From a virus: a stretch of DNA of 42,305 nucleotides. A program made the translations under genes and the position numbers. The number at the start of each line of letters is the position of its first letter. Position 1 is the first letter of the stretch. The stretch lies in the UHGV virus genome UHGV-0118819; one strand, 5' to 3'. This document shows, piece by piece, positions 2,366 to 40,199 of this stretch. The notes beneath the pieces were generated by a model. It did no database searches, was not told the DNA's origin, and worked only from the letters and a program-made list of their open reading frames with translations.

Positions 2366-2440
2366 GGGTCAGTCGTATAAAGGTCATTACGGAAGGCTGT
2401 TAACCTTCTTATCGTGGTTCGAGTCCACGCTGTCCCGCCA
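2366..2440 (+). tRNA. tRNA-like gene, anticodon GUU (Asn); possibly degenerate
   Basis: Hand-folded cloverleaf: perfect anticodon stem GAAGG/CCTTC, loop CTGTTAA, T-arm CGTGG-TTCGAGT-CCACG, 3' CCA; one mismatch each in acceptor and D stems. Confidence 0.5.
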
Positions 2441-2445
2441 AACAT

Positions 2446-2521
2446 GCTGGTTTAGCTCCAATGGTAGAGCAGTCGCCTTGTAAGCGAATGGGTAGCGGTT
2501 CAAGTCCGTTAACCAGCACCA
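2446..2521 (+). tRNA. tRNA-Thr (anticodon UGU)
   Basis: Hand-folded 76-nt cloverleaf: 7-bp acceptor stem GCTGGTT/AACCAGC, D-arm GCTC..GAGC with GG, anticodon loop CTTGTAA, T-loop TTCAAGT, encoded CCA. Confidence 0.8.
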
Positions 2522-32763: not shown

Positions 32764-33652
32764 CCTCCAGTTTCGCTTTGCATTCTATGTAAATGGCTTG
32801 TATGTTCTGCTGCAATTTCATTCCAGATGTCAGGCGATATGCTTCTGCAAAATATCTCTTCAAATCATCCATGTTTTCAGCCTGAGCCATTTCATCACAA
32901 AGAAGTTGTGCTTTATCCGTTATTCCCTGCTGGCGTTTCCGTTCATCTTCGCGGATATCTTCCTCTGATTTGTGCGGCATAACTGGTTCAGTCCATACAC
33001 CTTCTTCTTCGTTTAGTACGTGAATAGCACTATCAAGACGTGATGCCTTAGGCCAATACTTGCTTGCACGCTTTACGACCGTCTTTCGCGCCATCTCATT
33101 CCAGTGATTTACCCATGGTCCTTTATCGCTGAATGCCGCCTTGCTTGTTTTCCTTACAGCCTCAATTTCAGCCAGACTCATCTCTTCCGTTAGATAATCA
33201 CCTGCTGGCGTCTTAACTGTGCAGTAAACACCAACGATATCGCCACGATCACCGAAGGCGTTGTATTTATGGGTTGGTGCTTTATCAAGTCCGTTTGACT
33301 CATAAGTATCGTTAGCATGAACAAGCTTTGCCTGACCCCATGAGATAACACCAGACTCCATTGCAATATGTAGCAATCCCATATAGCTGATATCAAGGCA
33401 CACCATGCCGTCGCGCGGAACCAGATAAGCCAGTTTGCTAGCCGGGTTTAAGGTGATGCCGATCGCCGCAACATTGATGATGGCGTTCTGTGCGCTGGTT
33501 GGATTTGCCAGTGCCGTTTTAGCCAGGTAATCATTTTTCTGGAAATACTGAATTGCAAACTGGCTTTCCTTAGCCCATGTCACCGTCTGTTCAGTCAATG
33601 CTCCGCAGAATAACTGCTCTTGCTGTTTAACGAATTCAACGATATTGCTCAT
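32741..33652 (-). CDS. recT: RecT-family single-strand annealing recombinase
   Basis: 303 aa with LAYLVPRDG and typical RecT core. Confidence 0.85.
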   Translation of the reverse strand: MSNIVEFVKQQEQLFCGALTEQTVTWAKESQFAIQYFQKNDYLAKTALANPTSAQNAIINVAAIGITLNPASKLAYLVPRDGMVCLDISYMGLLHIAMESGVISWGQAKLVHANDTYESNGLDKAPTHKYNAFGDRGDIVGVYCTVKTPAGDYLTEEMSLAEIEAVRKTSKAAFSDKGPWVNHWNEMARKTVVKRASKYWPKASRLDSAIHVLNEEEGVWTEPVMPHKSEEDIREDERKRQQGITDKAQLLCDEMAQAENMDDLKRYFAEAYRLTSGMKLQQNIQAIYIECKAKLEVASEQTI

Positions 33653-33960
33653 GCTGCTTCTCCAAAAATGTGTCTGCGTTTGAATATTGCGAAGGCATAT
33701 TCAGCCTTAACTCTTTCGGTTATTGCATCCCAGAACCATTCAGCGGCTTTTTCCTGATAGTTACAGTCATCATCTTCCAGCCAGTCGATAGCGTCCTTAG
33801 TGTGTTCATCTGGTTTATATGAGCGAAGCATTTCGCTTATTGGGTCGCAACGTTTGCAGAGGCGATCAACTTCACTGTTGATTCGTTCGTAATCTTCATC
33901 AGTAAAACTTGCGATTATTTGCGATATTTCACGCTTATCATTCAGAGTCAGAATCATCAT
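33649..33960 (-). CDS. hypothetical early protein (103 aa)
   Basis: ORF coupled to RecT start. Confidence 0.55.
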   Translation of the reverse strand: MMILTLNDKREISQIIASFTDEDYERINSEVDRLCKRCDPISEMLRSYKPDEHTKDAIDWLEDDDCNYQEKAAEWFWDAITERVKAEYAFAIFKRRHIFGEAA

Positions 33961-34041
33961 CTTTCTCCTGTTCTTTGTGCTGATTGAGCATTTTGTTCAT
34001 CTGACGAATGAACTCTTCGTCTGACCAGTTATCTGTAAAAC

Positions 34042-34194
34042 TCATTTCCTGCGATACCACGGAAGATTGATAGCTGATTTCATCGCTTTATTTGCTTCAA
34101 GCCACATTTTTGAATCACCAATAAATCTGGCTATTACTGCTTTGTTCTGTGCAGCACGAAGCATCTGGTGATTGATGGCTATTTCATTGCGCAT
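34042..34194 (-). CDS. Kil-like small protein (50 aa), tentative
   Basis: Own translation MRNEIAINHQMLRAAQNKAVIARFIGDSKMWLEANKAMKSAINLPWYRRK with GGAGG RBS; position after cIII and FIGD..KM motif recall lambda Kil. Confidence 0.4.
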   Translation of the reverse strand: MRNEIAINHQMLRAAQNKAVIARFIGDSKMWLEANKAMKSAINLPWYRRK

Positions 34195-34313
34195 AACGCC
34201 TCCAGTTGTTTCTTTGCTGCTCTGATTAATTGTTTAACTCGGCGTGATAATTCAGATTCGTGCGGGTAGAAAGCGGACATGACGCCGCTACCCGCGAGCT
34301 GAAAGTGCATCAT
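34179..34313 (-). CDS. cIII: CIII-like protein (protease inhibitor protecting CII)
   Basis: 44 aa from MMHFQLAGSGVMSAFYPHESELSRRVKQLIRAAKKQLEAL; resembles lambda CIII amphipathic helix; AAGGAG RBS. Confidence 0.7.
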   Translation of the reverse strand: MMHFQLAGSGVMSAFYPHESELSRRVKQLIRAAKKQLEALCAMK

Positions 34314-34377
34314 GGGTAACTCCTTATATTTGATTGCATAACGAAAACGCCTCTCGTGAAGCGTTATTGGTATGCAT

Positions 34378-34403
34378 ATAAAAAAGCCCTCACACTGGAG
34401 GGC
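34378..34403 (-). terminator. intrinsic terminator (tL1-like) upstream of cIII
   Basis: Minus strand GCCCTC-CAGTGT-GAGGGC followed by TTTTTTAT. Confidence 0.6.
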
Positions 34404-34465
34404 AAAGAAGATTTCCAATAATCAGAACAAGTCGACTCCTGTTTAGTTACGAGCGACATTGCTCC

Positions 34466-34493
34466 GTGTATTCACTCGTTGGAATGAATACAC
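34466..34493 (-). promoter_or_regulatory. perfect 9-bp stem hairpin just after the 156-aa gene
   Basis: GTGTATTCA-(10 nt loop)-TGAATACAC. Confidence 0.45.
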
Positions 34494-34507
34494 AGTGCTT
34501 ACTCGTA

Positions 34508-34978
34508 CTAATAAAATACCCAATTTTCTGTTTCTTGGTTGTGCCCAAAGTTATATTCAATATCTGGTGTTGATGTATCAATATTCTTCATCCCATCAAC
34601 AAGAGTTGATACAACAGCCAAATCTTGTTTGATTCTCATTAAATGGTATTTCTTCCGGCGCAATAAACTTTCAATGGCAAGTTTCTTCGTTGGGAATGCA
34701 AAAGATCTTTCTGCATTTTTTGCTACTTTCTTAATTGCATATCTATTTCTCCTTTGTTTCCATTCCTGTAACCACTGATTTGGTGCTGGTTTAAAATTAA
34801 CAATCCAATGCGCAGGAACCAACCATGCATAATGCTCTGTCTGATGAAAAGCTATATATTGAAGTGCGAATATTTTGATCCCATCTTCTTCAACTGTCGC
34901 CTGGAATCTCCAGAAAACAGGCATTCCATCATGTTCAGTTTCTGATTCAGGAAAAGGTACGCTCCATGATTTTGTCAT
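34508..34978 (-). CDS. hypothetical AT-rich protein (156 aa) in N-cIII interval (moron candidate)
   Basis: ORF between N-proximal gene and terminator; composition visibly more AT-rich than neighbours. Confidence 0.6.
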   Translation of the reverse strand: MTKSWSVPFPESETEHDGMPVFWRFQATVEEDGIKIFALQYIAFHQTEHYAWLVPAHWIVNFKPAPNQWLQEWKQRRNRYAIKKVAKNAERSFAFPTKKLAIESLLRRKKYHLMRIKQDLAVVSTLVDGMKNIDTSTPDIEYNFGHNQETENWVFY

Positions 34979-35040
34979 ATCTCACCTCAAATAAGTGGCT
35001 TGCTGCCAAAACAATGAACCATCCGGAAATTCCAGATAGT

Positions 35041-35268
35041 TCATAATTCACTCTTCAATACTTCCAACTTACTAATCGCCGATAGATATCCGCGCTGATA
35101 GGGCATCATCATTCCTTCGAGCTTGCCACTTCTTAACTCCTCCCTGAGCAATTGTATTGCTTGATCAATAACCTCTGCCTTAGCGTCCTTTATGGATTGC
35201 TTTCGGGGCTTTGCTTTCTGCTTTGGCAGATTTCTCAAGCATGATGGAATGTATGTCTGATTCATCAC
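35041..35268 (-). CDS. hypothetical small basic protein (75 aa)
   Basis: ORF directly downstream of N. Confidence 0.5.
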   Translation of the reverse strand: MMNQTYIPSCLRNLPKQKAKPRKQSIKDAKAEVIDQAIQLLREELRSGKLEGMMMPYQRGYLSAISKLEVLKSEL

Positions 35269-35541
35269 TTACCTCGCTGTCAGTTGTTTTGATTTCCGGT
35301 AGCCTGCCGCGTAAATGGCTACGTTTGGCAGGCAAATACTTCCACTGCATTCATCTGCCTTCTTGCAGCGAAGGCTTCCGAGTGATGCTGCTTTGTCTGC
35401 TCTGACGCAACCAGAGAGCTTTAGCGCAATTTTTCGTGCCAGTCGCTGCTCTTGCATTGCCTGTTCACGTTGAGCCTGTCTGCGTGCTCTGCGGCGATTT
35501 CTGGCGTTATCGTCAGCCAGATATGTAATGACTACTGTCAT
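35269..35541 (-). CDS. N: N-like antitermination protein
   Basis: 90 aa; arginine-rich motif DNARNRRRARRQAQREQ near N-terminus; first gene after nutL. Confidence 0.75.
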   Translation of the reverse strand: MTVVITYLADDNARNRRRARRQAQREQAMQEQRLARKIALKLSGCVRADKAASLGSLRCKKADECSGSICLPNVAIYAAGYRKSKQLTAR

Positions 35542-35649
35542 GTTGACCTCCGATGATTGACTTTGGCGGTGACGCGCCGGGTGCTTATCTTCCGGTTGCC
35601 GTCGTGCAGCTGCACTTCACGTCACCCCAAAGCCAACTACTCTTTGGTT

Positions 35650-35689
35650 CCCGCATTTCGGCGGGACAATCCCATCAATGTTAAAGAGC
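35650..35689 (-). promoter_or_regulatory. nutL (boxA + boxB)
   Basis: Minus strand GCTCTTTAACA, 13-nt spacer, boxB hairpin CCCGC-CGAAAT-GCGGG; identical to nutR. Confidence 0.7.
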
Positions 35690-35735
35690 CTGCCAATCTG
35701 TTCCGTTTGGCTACCAGCGTCCTGCTGATGGCTAA

Positions 35736-35764
35736 AGAATACTGTAGGTATTTTATTGTGTAAA
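35736..35764 (-). promoter_or_regulatory. candidate pL promoter
   Basis: Minus strand TTTACA - 17 bp - TATTCT overlapping OL operators; -10 context shared with pR. Confidence 0.4.
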
Positions 35765-35823
35765 TACCCAAGGTATTTATTTTTGGTGAAATAATGATAA
35801 GCAAATGAATACAAAGGATATTT
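35737..35823. promoter_or_regulatory. OL operators (17-bp partial palindromes, 2 clear + 1 weaker)
   Basis: GAATACTGTAGGTATTT (35737-35753), AAATACCCAAGGTATTT (35762-35778), GAATACAAAGGATATTT (35807-35823); consensus RAATACY-N3-RGTATTY. Confidence 0.55.
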
Positions 35824-35909
35824 ATTTTTTTCGGTGTCTGCTTGTTCAGTGCTTTTTATGCGGGATATGTGAAGTGGATCCCGATAGCTATTGCTGCCGG
35901 GATTATGGG

Positions 35910-36299
35910 TTAGTCAGCGAAGGTTAAGACGAGAATTACCTTAATGATGTCTGCTACAACAGACACGGCCATAGATAAACCAAAGACAATCCAAGCCATA
36001 GAGATGTCTTCACTACCATCGTATAGAGTTCCGTAATCACTGGTGTAAGGCGTAAATGTCGCGCCTTGATACAATAGGTATAAGCTTGATCCATAGAGGA
36101 TAAATGCAGATATCCCTTGTATTGCCATGATCACCAGAATCATGAAACGAGCTGATCTATGCGCCCAAGCCTGGCTTATTTTTTCTGATAGAGATTTCGC
36201 AATAAAAGCATGCGCTAAGCCGTAAATTGTCGAGATTGCCAACATCCCAAAAAAGCTTGCTATAGCGGTTCCAACCATAAGCGCCCCTTGCGTGATCAA
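35910..36299 (-). CDS. small multi-pass membrane protein co-transcribed with cI (rex-slot moron candidate)
   Basis: 129 aa with about 4 hydrophobic segments; TTG start overlapping cI stop (alternative ATG 21 nt downstream); ends just before OL. Confidence 0.65.
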   Translation of the reverse strand: MITQGALMVGTAIASFFGMLAISTIYGLAHAFIAKSLSEKISQAWAHRSARFMILVIMAIQGISAFILYGSSLYLLYQGATFTPYTSDYGTLYDGSEDISMAWIVFGLSMAVSVVADIIKVILVLTFAD

Positions 36300-37012
36300 A
36301 CCAGCCTTAGTTTTGTCTCAATTGCAACGCCTATAATCTTGCAGTTTCCATTGATTGGCACGAGAGGCCATGCAGGGTTAAGTCCCTTGAGGTATTTATT
36401 TCCGCCGTCGATTATCAGCTTCTTGAATGTTGCTTCGTTAGAGTCAGAAAGTTTTGCTATGACCAAGCTGCCGTTGATCGCCTCCCTTCCGGTATCGAAA
36501 AGAACGAATGTTCCCTCTGGAATGCTTAACCCAACCGGTGCCGTCATTGAATCACCTTCCACTTTAAGCCAAAACGCATTACCTTGAATATGCGCGTCAG
36601 ACTCAAGCCAAACATCTATGTCTTTAATGGTGTATGGTTCGCATGCTTCACACCACGAGCCAGCCTGGATACTGCTTAACACCGGATACCTCTTTCCTGC
36701 TCTGTATTCCCCTGCATACCTTACGTTGGCATCGCTCTTAAGGCTTTCTGCCTGTTCTGCAACCTTGGCAGCAATTGACTGGCTAAAATCAGCAATTGAG
36801 ACTTGCAACAATCGTGCAAAACCAGATGCAACCTCAACGTTTAGCGCATTTCTGCCATTAAGATAATGCCCTACCGCTCCTTGGGTGATACCCAGTTCAT
36901 CAGCGATTGAGTATTGGGTTATTCCCAATTCTTTCTTTTTTGACTCATACAAAGCCTTAAGCCGCTTAGCGTCTTCCAGCTGTTCTGTCGTCAGTGATTT
37001 TTTATTTTCCAT
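36296..37012 (-). CDS. cI: CI repressor (HTH + S24 autoprotease domain)
   Basis: 238 aa; N-terminal HTH LGITQYSIADELGITQGAVGHYLNG; C-terminal GDSM...K LexA-like motif. Confidence 0.9.
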   Translation of the reverse strand: MENKKSLTTEQLEDAKRLKALYESKKKELGITQYSIADELGITQGAVGHYLNGRNALNVEVASGFARLLQVSIADFSQSIAAKVAEQAESLKSDANVRYAGEYRAGKRYPVLSSIQAGSWCEACEPYTIKDIDVWLESDAHIQGNAFWLKVEGDSMTAPVGLSIPEGTFVLFDTGREAINGSLVIAKLSDSNEATFKKLIIDGGNKYLKGLNPAWPLVPINGNCKIIGVAIETKLRLV

Positions 37013-37046
37013 AGCTTAATTCTAATAGCTAAGGTACTTAAACTAA

Positions 37047-37088
37047 AAATACCCTGAGTATTGATTGCTTTGAATACCTGTAGTATTC
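37047..37088. promoter_or_regulatory. OR operators (two 17-bp sites)
   Basis: AAATACCCTGAGTATTG (37047-37063) and GAATACCTGTAGTATTC (37072-37088), same half-sites as OL. Confidence 0.55.
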
Positions 37089-37089
37089 T
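37061..37089 (+). promoter_or_regulatory. candidate pR promoter
   Basis: TTGATT (37061-66) - 17 bp - TATTCT (37084-89), overlapping OR2. Confidence 0.4.
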
Positions 37090-37118
37090 TTATTCATGGT
37101 TAATAACGGAGAGTGCAT

Positions 37119-37313
37119 ATGATTCGAATGACACTTGCCGATTACGCCAAAATCCATGGACAGGCTAAAGCAGCCAGTGACTTTGGTGTAATCCAGTGCG
37201 CTATCAGCAAGGCCATTCTGGCAGGCCGTAACATCATGGTTACGGTAAAGCCTGATGGCAGTGTGATTGGAGAGGAAGTTCGTCCTTTCCCAAGCAACAA
37301 GAAAAACAAATAG
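37119..37313 (+). CDS. cro: Cro repressor
   Basis: 64 aa [64 protein letters not shown]; close to recalled lambda Cro; GGAGAG RBS. Confidence 0.9.
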
Positions 37314-37319
37314 TAACAC

Positions 37320-37362
37320 CGCTCTTTAACAGTCATGGTCATCATTCCCGCCGAAATGCGGG
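37320..37362 (+). promoter_or_regulatory. nutR (boxA + boxB)
   Basis: CGCTCTTTAACA then CCCGC-CGAAAT-GCGGG hairpin, 7 nt after cro stop. Confidence 0.7.
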
Positions 37363-37370
37363 AATACAAC

Positions 37371-37388
37371 GCGCATAAGTTGATGCGC
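37371..37388 (+). terminator. tR1-like hairpin
   Basis: GCGCAT-AAGTTG-ATGCGC followed by a weak T-rich tail. Confidence 0.35.
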
Positions 37389-37421
37389 ATAACTTCTTAT
37401 TTGTTAAGGAAATACTTACAT

Positions 37422-37700
37422 ATGCAACTTACAAGTACTCGCAAGAAAGCGAATGCAATTACAAGCAACATCCTGAATCGAATTGCTGTACGTGGTCAGC
37501 GAAAGGTTGCCGACGCGTTAGGGATTAATGAATCGCAAATTTCGCGATGGAAAGACAGCTTCATCCCCAAAATGGGAATGCTTCTGGCTGTTCTTGAATG
37601 GGGTGTTGAAGACGAGGAGTTGGCGGAACTGGCTAAGAAAGTAGCCAGAATGCTGACAAAAGAAAAAGCCCCGAAGAACGGCGAATTCTTCGAGGCCTGA
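37422..37700 (+). CDS. cII: CII-like transcriptional activator
   Basis: 92 aa from ATG 37422 (AAGGA RBS); core ESQISRWKDSFIPKMGMLLAVLEWGVEDEELAELAKKVARMLT close to recalled lambda CII. Confidence 0.8.
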   Translation: MQLTSTRKKANAITSNILNRIAVRGQRKVADALGINESQISRWKDSFIPKMGMLLAVLEWGVEDEELAELAKKVARMLTKEKAPKNGEFFEA

Positions 37701-37734
37701 TGTAGAAAGACTGGATCAATCCACAGGAGTCATT

Positions 37735-37896
37735 ATGACAAAACGTCGTAAGAAATACCAGGAAAAAGAAGAGATTCGACACCCTGATTCACCTGAGGGA
37801 TTAGTGGTAGCCGCAGCAAATAACAGGGCGTTCGCAGAGCGCCTTGTTGGTGTTTACAGACTAGCCAAAGCAGGAGTGAAACATGGGCGTCGTTAA
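37735..37896 (+). CDS. small basic ORF (53 aa) between cII and O
   Basis: Own translation MTKRRKKYQEKEEIRHPDSPEGLVVAAANNRAFAERLVGVYRLAKAGVKHGRR; AGGAG RBS; below ORF-track threshold. Confidence 0.35.
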   Translation: MTKRRKKYQEKEEIRHPDSPEGLVVAAANNRAFAERLVGVYRLAKAGVKHGRR

Positions 37897-37945
37897 GTTA
37901 GCTGATTACAGGCATAACCCTGTACAACATCAGGAGGCATCCAGT

Positions 37946-38773
37946 ATGGGGTATGTCTCTATACACCGCCAGTTTATGGACAGCAGGCTCTATAAGGACT
38001 CTCAGGCAGTACATCTTTGGCTTCACTTAATCCTCAAGGCTAATCACGAATCTACTGTCGTCAATACGGATATCGGTCCGATAACTGTTGATCGCGGTCA
38101 GATGATAACTGGACGCCCGTCGCTGGTCAGAGAAACATTCATCCCCGACAACAAAGTTCGGAGCTTATTACGGACTTTTGAGTCGAAAGGGATGCTTAAT
38201 ATTTGCTCGATGGGGAAGAAATTTAGCCTGTTTACAATCGTTAAATATGACGATTTTCAGGCAAAAAATTGTCCAACGGTTGTCCAACGGTTGTCCAACG
38301 CAAACACCAGTAATGGCGCTGCTCTCAGCGGAGATTGTCCAACGGTTGTCCAACGATTGTCCATAAACAATAATATAAATAATATCTCTAATACTGACGT
38401 ATTAGAGAGTGCCACAGCAGACAAAAAGTCTGACAAGAAAAAACCTTCCGTCAGCTGTCAGGATGTTGTCGATGCTTACCACGAAATCCTTCCTGAAGCG
38501 CCAAGAATCCGCGCACTGAATGACAAGCGTAAAAACCAGATCCGAACGTTCTGGCGCAAAGCCGGAGTGATAACCCGCCAGCTTGACGGGCATGGGTTCA
38601 CGATGCAGGACTGGAGAAATTATTTGAGCTACGTAGGCGAAAATTGCCGATGGATGTTCGAAGAACGCCCAAACCATCAACGCGGAACCGTCTGGCACAA
38701 AAAGGGATTTGATTTCCTGCTTAACGACAATACCTACCTGAAAGTTCGTGAGGGTGAACACGATGACCGATAA
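37946..38773 (+). CDS. replication initiator (O-like) containing origin iterons
   Basis: ATG 37946 with AGGAGG RBS (ORF-track start 37883); iteron DNA translated as NCPTVVQRLSN...DCPTVVQRLSINNN. Confidence 0.7.
   Translation: MGYVSIHRQFMDSRLYKDSQAVHLWLHLILKANHESTVVNTDIGPITVDRGQMITGRPSLVRETFIPDNKVRSLLRTFESKGMLNICSMGKKFSLFTIVKYDDFQAKNCPTVVQRLSNANTSNGAALSGDCPTVVQRLSINNNINNISNTDVLESATADKKSDKKKPSVSCQDVVDAYHEILPEAPRIRALNDKRKNQIRTFWRKAGVITRQLDGHGFTMQDWRNYLSYVGENCRWMFEERPNHQRGTVWHKKGFDFLLNDNTYLKVREGEHDDR
38269..38410. repeat. origin of replication: six 11-bp iterons (TTGTCCAACGG) in two clusters plus AT-rich region
   Basis: Iterons at 38269-38301 and 38335-38367 followed by AATAATATAAATAATATCTCTAATA. 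Confidence 0.65.
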
Positions 38774-40199
38774 TTTTTATGCGCCGCCCCATAGCATCGA
38801 GGCAGAGCAGGCGGTGATTGGTGGATTGCTTCTGGATGATGACAGCAGTGAGCGCGTCCAGAAAGTTCTGGCGATGCTGAAGCCTGATTCATTTTACAGT
38901 CGACCACACAAAATCCTTTTCGAAGAAATAACCAGAATGCACCGTGAGCAAAAGCCAGTAGATGGCCTGACGCTTTTCGATGAACTGGAGCGTAAATCGT
39001 TAACGGCGTCTGTTGGCGGTTTTGCTTATATCGCTGAGATCGCAAAGAACACGCCAAGCGCAGCAAACATCGTTGCCTATGCAATGCAGGTTCGTGAAAC
39101 CGCAATGGAACGCTACGCCATCAACCGCATGACTGAAGCGACGGAATTGCTCTATTCCCGCAACGGAATGACTGCAACGCAGAAGTACGAAGCTATTCAG
39201 GCGATTTTCACGCAACTGACAGACCATGCAAAAACCGGATCGCGTCGCGGCCTTCGCTCATTTGGTGAGGTCATGGAAGACTGGGTTAGCGACCTTGAGA
39301 AGCGATTTGACCCGTCAGGCGAACAACGAGGAATGAGCACAGGGATCCCATCGCTGGACAGGATGCTGTCACCGAAAGGTCTGGTGAAAGGCTCTCTGTT
39401 TGTCATTGGCGCTCGCCCTAAGATGGGGAAAACGACGCTATACAGCCAGATGGCAATCAACTGCGCAGTGCATGAGAAAAAGCCCGCTCTGATGTTCAGC
39501 CTTGAAATGCCAGGTGATCAGATACTGGAAAAACTGGTAGGACAGAAGTCAGGTGTTAACCCGAATATTTTTTACCTTCCGGCGACAAATGACGCTGATG
39601 ACGGCTATCAGGGTGATTACGATGGTGACTTCAATAGGGCGATCGAAACAGCCAATCGCTTGAGTGAAATCGACCTGCTTTACATCGACGACACGCCGGG
39701 ATTATCTCTGGCTCAAATCGTCAGCGAAAGCCGTCGAATCAAGCGAGAAAAAGGATGTGTTGGGATGATTCTGGTCGATTACCTGACACTAATGGCCGCT
39801 GAGAAGGCCGATCGTAACGACCTTGCTTACGGCATGATCACCAAAGGACTGAAGAACCTTGCCAAAGAGCTTGATTGCGTTGTTGTGCTTCTGACGCAGC
39901 TTAACCGCGCACTGGAAAGCCGAACCAATAAACGCCCATTACCAAGTGACTCACGAGATACAGGGCAGATTGAACAGGATTGCGATTATTGGGTTGGGAT
40001 CCATCGTGAAGGTGCTTTTGATGACAGTGTTCCACCTGGTGAAACCGAACTAATCCTTCGTCTCAATCGTCATGGCAATACCGGTACGGTGTATTGCATT
40101 CAGGCAAATGGCGCTATTTATGACACAGACCAACAGTCTGCTGAAATTCGCCGCCGTGAACGCGAGGAACCGCAGTCCAAGAAGAAAGGAGGATTCTGA
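38763..40199 (+). CDS. replicative DNA helicase (DnaB-like)
   Basis: 478 aa from ATG 38763; Walker A GARPKMGKTT; DnaB-like N-terminal IEAEQAVIGGLLLD. Confidence 0.9.
   Translation: MTDNFYAPPHSIEAEQAVIGGLLLDDDSSERVQKVLAMLKPDSFYSRPHKILFEEITRMHREQKPVDGLTLFDELERKSLTASVGGFAYIAEIAKNTPSAANIVAYAMQVRETAMERYAINRMTEATELLYSRNGMTATQKYEAIQAIFTQLTDHAKTGSRRGLRSFGEVMEDWVSDLEKRFDPSGEQRGMSTGIPSLDRMLSPKGLVKGSLFVIGARPKMGKTTLYSQMAINCAVHEKKPALMFSLEMPGDQILEKLVGQKSGVNPNIFYLPATNDADDGYQGDYDGDFNRAIETANRLSEIDLLYIDDTPGLSLAQIVSESRRIKREKGCVGMILVDYLTLMAAEKADRNDLAYGMITKGLKNLAKELDCVVVLLTQLNRALESRTNKRPLPSDSRDTGQIEQDCDYWVGIHREGAFDDSVPPGETELILRLNRHGNTGTVYCIQANGAIYDTDQQSAEIRRREREEPQSKKKGGF

What the first reader, a model, noticed from the sequence alone, without database searches (positions are those of the whole stretch)
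35910..36299. Multi-pass membrane protein translationally coupled to cI in the rex slot of the immunity region
Immediately downstream of cI on the same strand, with its start codon overlapping the cI stop and ending just before OL/pL, lies a 129-aa ORF with about four hydrophobic segments. This is the position occupied by rexA/rexB in lambda, that is, a gene expressed from pRM in lysogens. The gene appears AT-rich. Its start is non-canonical (TTG overlapping the cI stop; alternative ATG at 36278). It is unrelated by eye to RexB or SieB, so it may be an uncharacterised superinfection-exclusion or abortive-infection effector, possibly a membrane-depolarising one.
Basis: partly seen in the sequence, partly recalled or inferred. 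Interest (0 to 1): 0.7.

Follow-up and report, generated by a model that had tools for sequence, protein, structure and literature searches.

The report
HkaS: membrane protein behind phage repressor
A small, conserved three-pass membrane protein of unknown function (HkaS of phage HK620) sits directly behind the prophage repressor gene, in the spot where other phages keep anti-phage genes, so it is a reasonable but untested candidate for a new phage-exclusion protein.

Summary
The ORF is real. It is the annotated but uncharacterised gene hkaS of the HK620 immunity module (98-99% DNA identity; PHROG 6534, unknown function). It is under purifying selection (dN/dS 0.14-0.22) and was intact in 80 of 80 IMG/VR copies. 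It always lies 17-20 nt after a HK620-type cI and before OL/pL/N, including in homologues only 52-82% identical from Salmonella, Hafnia and metagenomes.

Two details of the finding are wrong. The conserved start is the ATG at 36278, which has its own Shine-Dalgarno sequence and gives 122 aa. The TTG that overlaps the cI stop is out of frame or blocked by a stop codon in many relatives. The protein has three transmembrane helices, not four (AlphaFold2 pLDDT 92.5), with predicted N-out/C-in topology.

It shows no sequence or fold similarity to RexB, SieA, SieB, a class I holin, PADLOC defence models or any PDB or BFVD entry. A profile search of 1.84 billion proteins found no remote homologues.

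The cI-to-OL slot is a documented cargo hotspot: rexAB in lambda, bstA in BTP1, other ORFs in Sf6 and BHUENT3, nothing in P22. A lysogen-expressed exclusion role is therefore plausible but unproven. This is an ordinary kind of feature, but the protein family is uncharacterised and widespread, in 146 of 5426 complete E. coli genomes.

The parts
36296..37012 (-). cI repressor (HTH_3 + Peptidase_S24), first gene of the operon
   Evidence: Pfam PF00717 E=5e-24 and PF01381 E=8e-10. 99-100% identical to the HK620/mEpX2 cI.
36284..36289 (-). Shine-Dalgarno sequence AAGGGG, 5 nt upstream of the hkaS ATG and inside the 17-nt cI-hkaS spacer
   Evidence: Read from the sequence. An AAGGA or AAGGGG motif 5-7 nt upstream of the ATG is present in all four divergent lineages.
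35910..36278 (-). hkaS coding sequence from the conserved ATG: 122 aa plus stop
   Evidence: PHROG 6534 E=6e-79, aligned to residues 8-129 of the 129-aa ORF. Annotated as hkaS in HK620. All homologues are 122 aa and begin with this ATG. dN/dS 0.14-0.22.
36297..36299 (-).
   Evidence: The frame is not conserved. An in-frame stop lies upstream of the ATG in L004-L006 and L008-L010. The spacer is 18-19 nt in 17 of 79 close copies.
36192..36275 (-). TM helix 1 (residues 2-29). No positive charge at the N-terminus. Conserved small-residue ladder G3/A5/[AG]7/S8/G11/A14
   Evidence: Kyte-Doolittle profile, AlphaFold2 helix, invariant columns.
36147..36191 (-). Predicted cytoplasmic loop with a short amphipathic helix (residues 30-44, LSEKISQAWAHRSAR; 3 K/R, 1 D/E). 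One of the best-conserved parts
   Evidence: Mean pairwise identity 0.76 and 8 of 15 columns invariant. Helix at 31-38.
36060..36158 (-). TM helix 2 (residues 41-73) with invariant Q54
36015..36059 (-). Predicted periplasmic loop (residues 74-88 of the 74-92 stretch), acidic and Tyr-rich, with a beta-hairpin. More variable between lineages
   Evidence: 0 K/R and 4 D/E in residues 74-92. Mean pairwise identity 0.52. Strands at 78-79 and 85-86.
35916..36014 (-). TM helix 3 (residues 89-121) with invariant D110 and K113 and the invariant C-terminal motif ILVLTFAD
35878..35903 (-). Stem-loop 7 nt after the hkaS stop codon. Probable operon-end terminator or 3'-stabilising hairpin; it has no U-tract
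   Evidence: MFE -15.3 kcal/mol, z=-3.1. Hairpins of different sequence lie at the same place in the Hafnia-type, Salmonella and metagenome lineages.
35807..35823 (-). Operator-consensus 17-mer AAATATCCTTTGTATTC, probably the true OL3. It lies inside the feature the HK620 record calls tIMM
   Evidence: The pattern AAATAYCNNNNGTATTY gave 6 hits against 0.14 expected, all in OL or OR. It is the best-conserved block of the spacer.
35729..35778 (-). OL2, OL1 and pL
   Evidence: Exact matches to the HK620 annotated features. Promoter-like site at 35764-35736.
35269..35541 (-). N antiterminator, the first pL gene, which marks the far side of the slot
   Evidence: Pfam N_peptide E=1e-15 and PHROG 271 E=4e-34.

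Best explanation
The feature is hkaS, a genuine 122-aa gene and the second and last gene of the cI (pRM/pRE) operon of the HK620-type immunity module. It starts at its own ATG and Shine-Dalgarno sequence 17 nt after the cI stop. Its product is a three-pass inner-membrane protein: N-terminus in the periplasm, a basic amphipathic loop in the cytoplasm, an acidic Tyr-rich loop in the periplasm, and the C-terminus in the cytoplasm. It is cargo (a 'moron') in the known cI-N hotspot and is made continuously in lysogens together with the repressor.

The most likely job is single-protein exclusion of superinfecting phages at the inner membrane. It would interfere with genome entry or with an inner-membrane host factor needed for entry, as P22 SieA does.

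Shown: gene reality, conservation, strict linkage to cI, the start codon, three TM helices, and absence of any known homologue.

Inferred: co-transcription with cI, topology, and the entire function.
For: Gene identity:
- 98.6-99% DNA identity to HK620, mEpX2, HK140, HK630 and Stx2c phages, where the gene is annotated hkaS or hypothetical.
- PHROG 6534, E=6e-79.

Selection:
- dN/dS 0.14-0.22 between lineages.
- 0.165 among 33 haplotypes, with only conservative amino-acid changes.
- 80 of 80 IMG/VR copies intact.

Linkage to cI:
- Every homologue (52-100% identical; Escherichia, Salmonella, Enterobacter, Hafnia, metagenomes) lies 17-20 nt after a HK620-type cI and before OL/N.
- The module travels with podovirus, siphovirus, Stx-phage and myovirus-type backbones.

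Operon structure:
- No promoter-like or terminator-like site between cI and hkaS.
- SD and ATG are conserved.
- A hairpin follows the stop in all four lineages.

Membrane protein:
- Kyte-Doolittle profile.
- AlphaFold2 pLDDT 92.5 with three long helices.
- Charge distribution of the loops.

Slot precedent:
- Lambda has rexAB here.
- BTP1 cI-bstA is one operon from a single TSS and BstA is a defence protein (PMC7067206, PMC8585504).
- The slot is a documented site of mosaicism and accessory loci.
- Homologous cI C-termini are followed by unrelated cargo in Sf6/Sf101 and BHUENT3, and by nothing in P22.

Inner-membrane exclusion precedent:
Against: - No functional data exist for any family member. 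Two literature searches naming hkaS, and others on HK620, mEpX2 and Stx2c, found nothing on this gene.
- No match to PADLOC defence models, or to SieA, SieB or RexB.
- The best-conserved parts face the cytoplasm: the loop at residues 30-44 and the C-terminal ADIxKxILVLTFAD. The periplasmic loop is less conserved. This does not obviously fit a protein whose main contact is with incoming phage parts in the periplasm.
- The gene is inactivated by a frameshift in phage HF4s and in a few bacterial copies, so it is dispensable for lytic growth. That is expected of a moron but says nothing about which accessory role it has.
- Strict linkage to one repressor type could reflect only the 17-nt physical linkage, or a function tied to that repressor.
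Confidence: 0.4

Rival explanations
1. Abortive-infection effector in the manner of RexB. HkaS forms or gates an ion-conducting oligomer in the inner membrane. Infection triggers it, it collapses membrane potential, and the infected cell dies or arrests before phage release.
For: - Same genomic slot as rexAB and bstA, both abortive-infection systems.
- Small polytopic membrane protein with invariant polar or charged residues inside TM helices (Q54, D110, K113).
- An invariant small-residue ladder in TM1 (G3, A5, [AG]7, S8, G11) of the type used for tight helix packing in oligomeric channels. The channel reading is inference from general knowledge.
- Same 3-TM N-out/C-in layout as class I holins (holin topology from general knowledge).
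Against: - No RexA-like sensor gene. The operon holds only cI and hkaS.
- No similarity to RexB (hhalign probability 0.7%) or to the P22 holin.
- Three TM helices against the four generally ascribed to RexB.
- No hydrophilic charged C-terminal tail of the holin type.
- A constitutively made pore-former with no partner would need a built-in trigger, for which there is no evidence.
- Fold searches gave only generic helical-bundle matches.
Confidence: 0.2
2. An accessory function that is not anti-phage. Examples: modulating a host inner-membrane protein (transporter, protease such as FtsH, envelope stress or cell-division factor) to improve lysogen fitness, or tuning prophage maintenance or induction of this particular immunity type.
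For: - The family is found only next to one repressor type, and its most conserved surfaces are cytoplasmic. This fits a conserved host or phage cytoplasmic or membrane partner rather than diverse invading phages.
- Known lysogen-expressed morons include non-defence genes such as lambda lom and bor.
- Sf6 gp38, in the same slot, is a secreted protein of unknown role.
Against: - The characterised cargo of this slot (rexAB, bstA) is anti-phage.
- HkaS evolves much faster than the adjacent cI (52-61% against 86-89% identity). This is more typical of conflict genes than of housekeeping modulators, though cI is itself unusually constrained.
Confidence: 0.3
3. A non-functional or spurious ORF kept only by hitch-hiking with cI.
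For: - Very narrow family. A profile search of 1.84 billion representatives returned two matches with E-value up to 0.001, a 122-aa homologue and a 44-aa fragment.
- Occasional frameshifted copies at homopolymer tracts.
- No annotation anywhere beyond 'hypothetical'.
Against: - dN/dS 0.14-0.22 with saturated synonymous divergence between lineages.
- 122-aa length, ATG and SD are preserved at 52% identity.
- 43 invariant columns in the seven-sequence alignment.
- 80 of 80 intact copies.
- A very confident AlphaFold2 model from only 7 sequences.
Confidence: 0.03

Closest known systems
hkaS of coliphage HK620 (GenBank AF335538, AAK28867; PHROG 6534)
   Same: It is the same gene. The region is 98.6% identical in DNA. 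The product is 122 aa from the same ATG. The position between cI and OL is the same. PHROG 6534 matches at E=6e-79.
   Different: Only a few conservative substitutions. The window carries the module on a different backbone: SEN34/vB_EcoM-689R2-like structural genes and mEpX2-like early genes. Neither hkaS nor PHROG 6534 has an assigned function.
Lambda RexB (with RexA), abortive-infection system in the cI operon
   Same: Same slot, downstream of cI and upstream of OL/pL. Small polytopic inner-membrane protein. Expected expression from pRM in lysogens.
   Different: No sequence relationship (hhalign probability 0.7%). Three predicted TM helices and 122 aa, against 144 aa and the four TM helices generally ascribed to RexB. 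No RexA-like partner gene. No internal promoter detected.
BstA of Salmonella prophage BTP1
   Same: A single accessory gene placed directly after cI and co-transcribed with it. It occupies the same cI-N hotspot and is a proven defence gene (PMC8585504, PMC7067206).
   Different: [quoted passage not shown] HkaS is a small integral membrane protein. No PADLOC defence model matches it.
P22 SieA (inner-membrane superinfection-exclusion protein)
   Same: A small prophage-expressed inner-membrane protein that acts alone. This is the mechanistic model favoured here, blocking DNA delivery across the inner membrane (PMC10883804).
   Different: No sequence similarity (hhalign probability 0.3%). sieA lies in the immI region with its own promoter, not behind the repressor. 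The target specificity of HkaS, if any, is unknown.
Sf6/Sf101 gp38 and the two ORFs behind cI in Enterobacter phage BHUENT3
   Same: Uncharacterised cargo in exactly the same slot, behind repressors 51-65% identical to this cI. BHUENT3 cI ends in the same ETKLRLV motif.
   Different: Unrelated proteins. Sf6 gp38 has an N-terminal signal peptide and looks secreted. BHUENT3 has a Cys-rich 127-aa ORF and a 109-aa C-tail-anchored ORF.

Membership tests
HkaS / PHROG 6534 | Significant full-length match to the family profile | tested here: met
   E=5.7e-79, profile positions 1-122 of 122 aligned to residues 8-129 of the 129-aa ORF. 97-98% protein identity to cluster representatives.
HkaS / PHROG 6534 | Position directly after a HK620-type cI and before OL/pL/N | tested here: met
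   Window. HK620 annotation. 79 of 79 IMG/VR loci that include upstream sequence. Divergent loci L004-L010.
cI-N hotspot accessory ('moron') gene | Co-oriented with cI, no intervening terminator or promoter, own ribosome-binding site, operon-end structure before OL | tested here: met
   17-nt spacer containing AAGGGG. No promoter-like or terminator-like site between the genes. Hairpin after the stop in four lineages.
cI-N hotspot accessory ('moron') gene | Variable, unrelated cargo between homologous flanks in related phages | tested here: met
   Lambda rexAB, P22 empty, Sf6/Sf101 gp38, BHUENT3 two ORFs, BTP1 bstA.
cI-N hotspot accessory ('moron') gene | Transcription in the lysogen | not testable with these tools
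   No expression data for this module were found in the literature searches.
RexB | Sequence homology to lambda RexB | tested here: not met
   hhalign probability 0.7%, 20 aligned columns. No Pfam or PHROG RexB hit.
RexB | Adjacent rexA-like sensor gene | tested here: not met
   Only cI and hkaS lie between OR and OL, in the window and in all related loci.
RexB | Four transmembrane segments | tested here: not met
   Three TM helices by hydropathy and AlphaFold2. The four-TM figure for RexB is from general knowledge.
SieA (P22-type) | Sequence homology to P22 SieA | tested here: not met
   hhalign probability 0.3%.
SieB (P22/lambda-type) | Sequence homology to P22 SieB | tested here: not met
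   hhalign probability 0.05%.
Class I holin | Sequence homology, a charged cytoplasmic C-terminal tail, and location in the lysis cassette | tested here: not met
   hhalign probability 0.45% against P22 gp13. The C-terminus is the hydrophobic ILVLTFAD. The gene is in the immunity region. Only the 3-TM count is shared.
Known anti-phage defence systems (PADLOC-DB 2.0) | Match to any defence-protein model | tested here: not met
   0 families at E<=10.
Superinfection exclusion or abortive infection (functional class) | Reduced plating or altered survival on phage challenge that depends on the gene | not testable with these tools
   Requires experiments. No published test was found.

The most novel reading that the evidence does not exclude
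HkaS is the founding member of a new family of single-protein phage-exclusion determinants in the inner membrane. It is made constitutively with the repressor and acts without a sensor partner, either by blocking genome entry or by collapsing the membrane on infection. It protects the roughly 3% of E. coli that carry HK620-immunity prophages, including prophages matching Stx2c-converting phages, against heteroimmune phages.
Probability: 0.45. Interest if true: 0.55.

Novelty: new member of a known kind. Interest (0 to 1): 0.35.

Why it matters
If HkaS excludes phages, it would add a compact, partner-less membrane protein to the known prophage defences. It would also give a third characterised cargo type for the cI-N hotspot, beside RexAB and BstA. 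It is common enough to affect phage typing and phage therapy host range in E. coli and Salmonella, and the spread of Stx phages. It occurs in 146 of 5426 complete E. coli genomes, and the same module is found in Stx2c-converting phage genomes. The family is small and well conserved and has a confident three-helix model, so it suits mechanistic work. If it has no anti-phage role, it is simply one more conserved prophage gene of unknown function.

Tried and rejected
- Pfam, NCBIfam and PADLOC gave no meaningful hit. The TssN and lnt matches are far below their cut-offs.
- A profile search of 1.84 billion representatives returned only a 122-aa homologue and a 44-aa fragment.
- A PDB sequence profile search returned nothing.
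- Foldseek against BFVD and PDB found nothing at E<=0.001.
- The AFDB50 fold library was unavailable.
- hhalign against RexB, SieA, SieB and the P22 holin was negative in each case.
- A scan of GTDB representative genomes found no copy.
- Literature searches for hkaS, HK620, mEpX2 and Stx2c found no functional study.
- TTG start rejected.
- The + strand 40-aa ORF at 35805-35927, annotated in HF4s, is rejected because its region is not conserved between lineages.
- The 65-aa ORF at 35617-35814, annotated in phi296, is rejected because it runs across OL/pL/nutL.
- The HK620 'tIMM' annotation is rejected as the terminator. It has no stem-loop and contains an operator-consensus site.

Full report
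**What is there.** The minus strand of the window carries the classic lambdoid immunity layout.
- OR1-3 lie at 37023-37088 and cI at 36296-37012.
- The ORF in question lies at 35910-36299.
- A stem-loop follows, then OL/pL at 35729-35823 and nutL at 35649-35690.
- An arginine-rich N antiterminator lies at 35269-35541.

The 1.4-kb stretch is 98.5-99.1% identical to the immunity region of HK620, HF4s, mEpX2, HK140, HK630, vB_EcoP_phi296/phi367 and two Stx2c-converting phages. In the HK620 record the ORF is the annotated gene hkaS, product 'unknown', 122 aa. The window itself is a mosaic. Its structural genes resemble vB_EcoM-689R2 and SEN34, and its early genes resemble mEpX2.

**It is a real gene.**
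- A search of 5.8 billion proteins found 12 clusters, spanning 52-100% identity.
- Every full-length homologue is exactly 122 aa, and 43 alignment columns are invariant.
- Where synonymous sites are not saturated, dN/dS is 0.14-0.22.
- Two Salmonella copies differ at dS 0.13 with dN 0.
- Among 33 haplotypes from IMG/VR, dN/dS is 0.165 and all 16 amino-acid polymorphisms are conservative.
- 80 of 80 IMG/VR copies are intact.
- The gene is present in 146 of 5426 complete E. coli genomes, always chromosomal.
- It also occurs in Salmonella, Enterobacter and Hafnia, and is named 'hypothetical protein' everywhere.
- A few copies are broken. HF4s has a 1-nt deletion in an A6 tract. Clusters P0006, P0007 and P0009 have out-of-frame N-terminal stretches.

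**Start codon.** The comparison rejects this.
- The window spacer is 17 nt (TCACGCAAGGGGCGCTT), with AAGGGG 5 nt before the ATG at 36278.
- In the 82%-identical lineage the spacer is 18 nt, so the cI TGA is in frame with hkaS.
- In the 61% lineage a TAA directly precedes the ATG.
- All lineages keep an AAGGA or AAGGGG motif 5-7 nt upstream of the ATG.
- Among near-identical copies the spacer is 17 nt in 62, 18 nt in 12 and 19 nt in 5.
- The PHROG profile also begins at the ATG.

Translation therefore starts at the ATG. Re-initiation by ribosomes terminating on cI is possible at this spacing but is not shown.

**The protein.**
- Hydropathy gives three peaks, not four.
- AlphaFold2 with only seven sequences gave mean pLDDT 92.5. 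It shows helices at 2-29, 41-73 and 89-121, a short amphipathic helix at 31-38, and a small beta-hairpin in the second loop.
- The N-terminus has no positive charge. Loop 1 has 3 K/R and 1 D/E. Loop 2 has 0 K/R and 4 D/E. By the positive-inside rule this gives N-out, loop 1 in the cytoplasm, loop 2 in the periplasm, and C-in. This is inference.
- Conservation is highest in the N-terminal half of TM1 with its small-residue ladder G3/A5/[AG]7/S8/G11 (0.73), the cytoplasmic loop LSxKISQAWxHRxARF (0.76) and the C-terminal ADIxKxILVLTFAD (0.75).
- Conservation is lowest in the cytoplasmic half of TM1 (0.42), the periplasmic half of TM3 (0.47) and the periplasmic loop (0.52).
- Q54, D110 and K113 are invariant polar or charged residues inside TM helices.
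- GC is 42%, the 8th percentile of the window. The surrounding early region is 38-47%, so this is unremarkable.

**No known relative.**
- Pfam, NCBIfam and PADLOC gave nothing meaningful.
- PHROG 6534 has no assigned function.
- A profile HMM search of 1.84 billion representatives returned only a 122-aa homologue and a 44-aa fragment.
- The PDB sequence search found nothing.
- Foldseek against BFVD and PDB found nothing at E<=0.001.
- Profile comparisons with lambda RexB, P22 SieA, P22 SieB and the P22 holin gave probabilities below 1%.

**Context and linkage.** In every locus recovered, the gene follows a HK620-type cI and precedes OL/pL/N. This includes loci where HkaS has diverged to 52-61% identity while cI stays at 86-89%. 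HkaS therefore evolves several times faster than its neighbour but is never separated from it.

The spacer between the hkaS stop and the operators is not conserved in sequence. Even so, each of four lineages has a hairpin there, and three of the four fold significantly better than shuffled sequence: z = -3.1, -3.9, -3.7 and -1.5. This fits an operon-end structure. No promoter-like or terminator-like site separates cI from hkaS.

The cI-to-OL slot is a recognised hotspot.
- Lambda carries rexAB there.
- BTP1 carries bstA. It is co-transcribed with cI from one TSS and is a proven abortive-infection gene (PMC7067206, PMC8585504).
- P22 has nothing there.
- Sf6 and Sf101 have a 134-aa secreted-looking protein overlapping the repressor stop.
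- Enterobacter phage BHUENT3 has a cI that is 65% identical and ends in the same ETKLRLV motif. It carries two unrelated ORFs.

**Mechanism.** What is shown: a conserved, selected, three-helix hydrophobic protein encoded as the distal gene of the repressor operon. What is inferred: it is made in lysogens and sits in the inner membrane.

From there I favour single-protein exclusion at the inner membrane, meaning interference with genome entry or with a membrane host factor used for entry. P22 SieA is the model (PMC10883804). I put this at about 0.4. A RexB-like depolarising abortive-infection effector is possible, at about 0.2. It is weakened by the absence of any sensor partner and any relationship to RexB or holins. 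A non-defence accessory or prophage-maintenance role is a serious alternative, at about 0.3. It is supported by the strict tie to one repressor type and by the fact that the most conserved surfaces face the cytoplasm. A spurious ORF is essentially excluded.

**Novelty and verdict.** The gene is known but uncharacterised. Its kind, a lysogen-expressed cargo gene in the cI-N hotspot, is well known. The start codon and TM count do not, and the function remains a hypothesis that a few simple experiments would settle. Interest is moderate to low (0.35). It would rise to about 0.55 if a partner-less membrane exclusion mechanism were demonstrated.

Noticed in passing
window 35807-35823 (-), compared with 35784-35800 and 35797-35827: A perfect operator-consensus 17-mer (AAATATCCTTTGTATTC) lies inside what the HK620 GenBank record calls the tIMM terminator. 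It is the best-conserved block of the hkaS-N spacer in all lineages. The site annotated as OL3 in HK620 (TTATCATTATTTCATCA) does not fit the operator consensus, and the 'tIMM' has no stem-loop. The HK620 OL3 and tIMM annotations are probably misplaced. The real hairpin is at 35878-35903.
   Followed up: partly
window 35805-35927 (+) and 35617-35814 (-): Two small ORFs annotated in related phage records: a 40-aa Cys-rich ORF in HF4s and a 65-aa ORF in phi296. Both overlap the hkaS 3' end, the spacer or the operator region. The region is not conserved between lineages or is occupied by OL/pL/nutL, so both look spurious.
   Followed up: partly
window 36179-36184 (A6) and 36249-36254 (T6), inside hkaS; L002 (HF4s): Homopolymer tracts inside hkaS coincide with the frameshifts seen in broken copies. 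HF4s lacks one A of the A6 tract. Protein clusters P0006, P0007 and P0009 are out of frame over the N-terminal stretch that spans the T6 and A6 tracts. These could be sequencing errors or genuine slippage-prone inactivation.
   Followed up: partly
L094 2108-2512 (Sf6 gene 38), L095 2109-2513 (Sf101 gp38), L093 2170-2886 (BHUENT3): Other uncharacterised cargo sits in the same slot behind related repressors. Sf6/Sf101 have a 134-aa protein with an N-terminal signal peptide whose ATG overlaps the repressor stop. BHUENT3 has a 127-aa Cys-rich (CPICG...CKNCG) ORF plus a 109-aa coiled-coil protein with a C-terminal TM anchor.
   Followed up: no
window 2366-2521 (+): Two adjacent phage-borne tRNA genes, tRNA-Asn(GTT) and tRNA-Thr(TGT).
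   Followed up: no
window 34508-34978 (-): A 156-aa ORF of unknown function (PHROG 1636, E=3e-112) in the pL operon downstream of N. It lies in the lowest-GC stretch among the 400-nt blocks profiled across 33001-39000 (37.5%). It is another possible accessory gene.
   Followed up: no
window 37335-37700 (+): The cII ORF as listed is 121 aa, but the CII PHROG profile aligns only from residue 30. The true start is probably the internal ATG (MQLTSTRKK...), giving about 93 aa as in HK620.
   Followed up: no
whole window: A mosaic temperate phage or prophage. Bases 3-25 kb resemble the tailed-phage structural module of vB_EcoM-689R2 and Salmonella phage SEN34. The early and immunity region resembles mEpX2 and HK620. 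The HK620 immunity module therefore travels with at least four virion types.
   Followed up: partly
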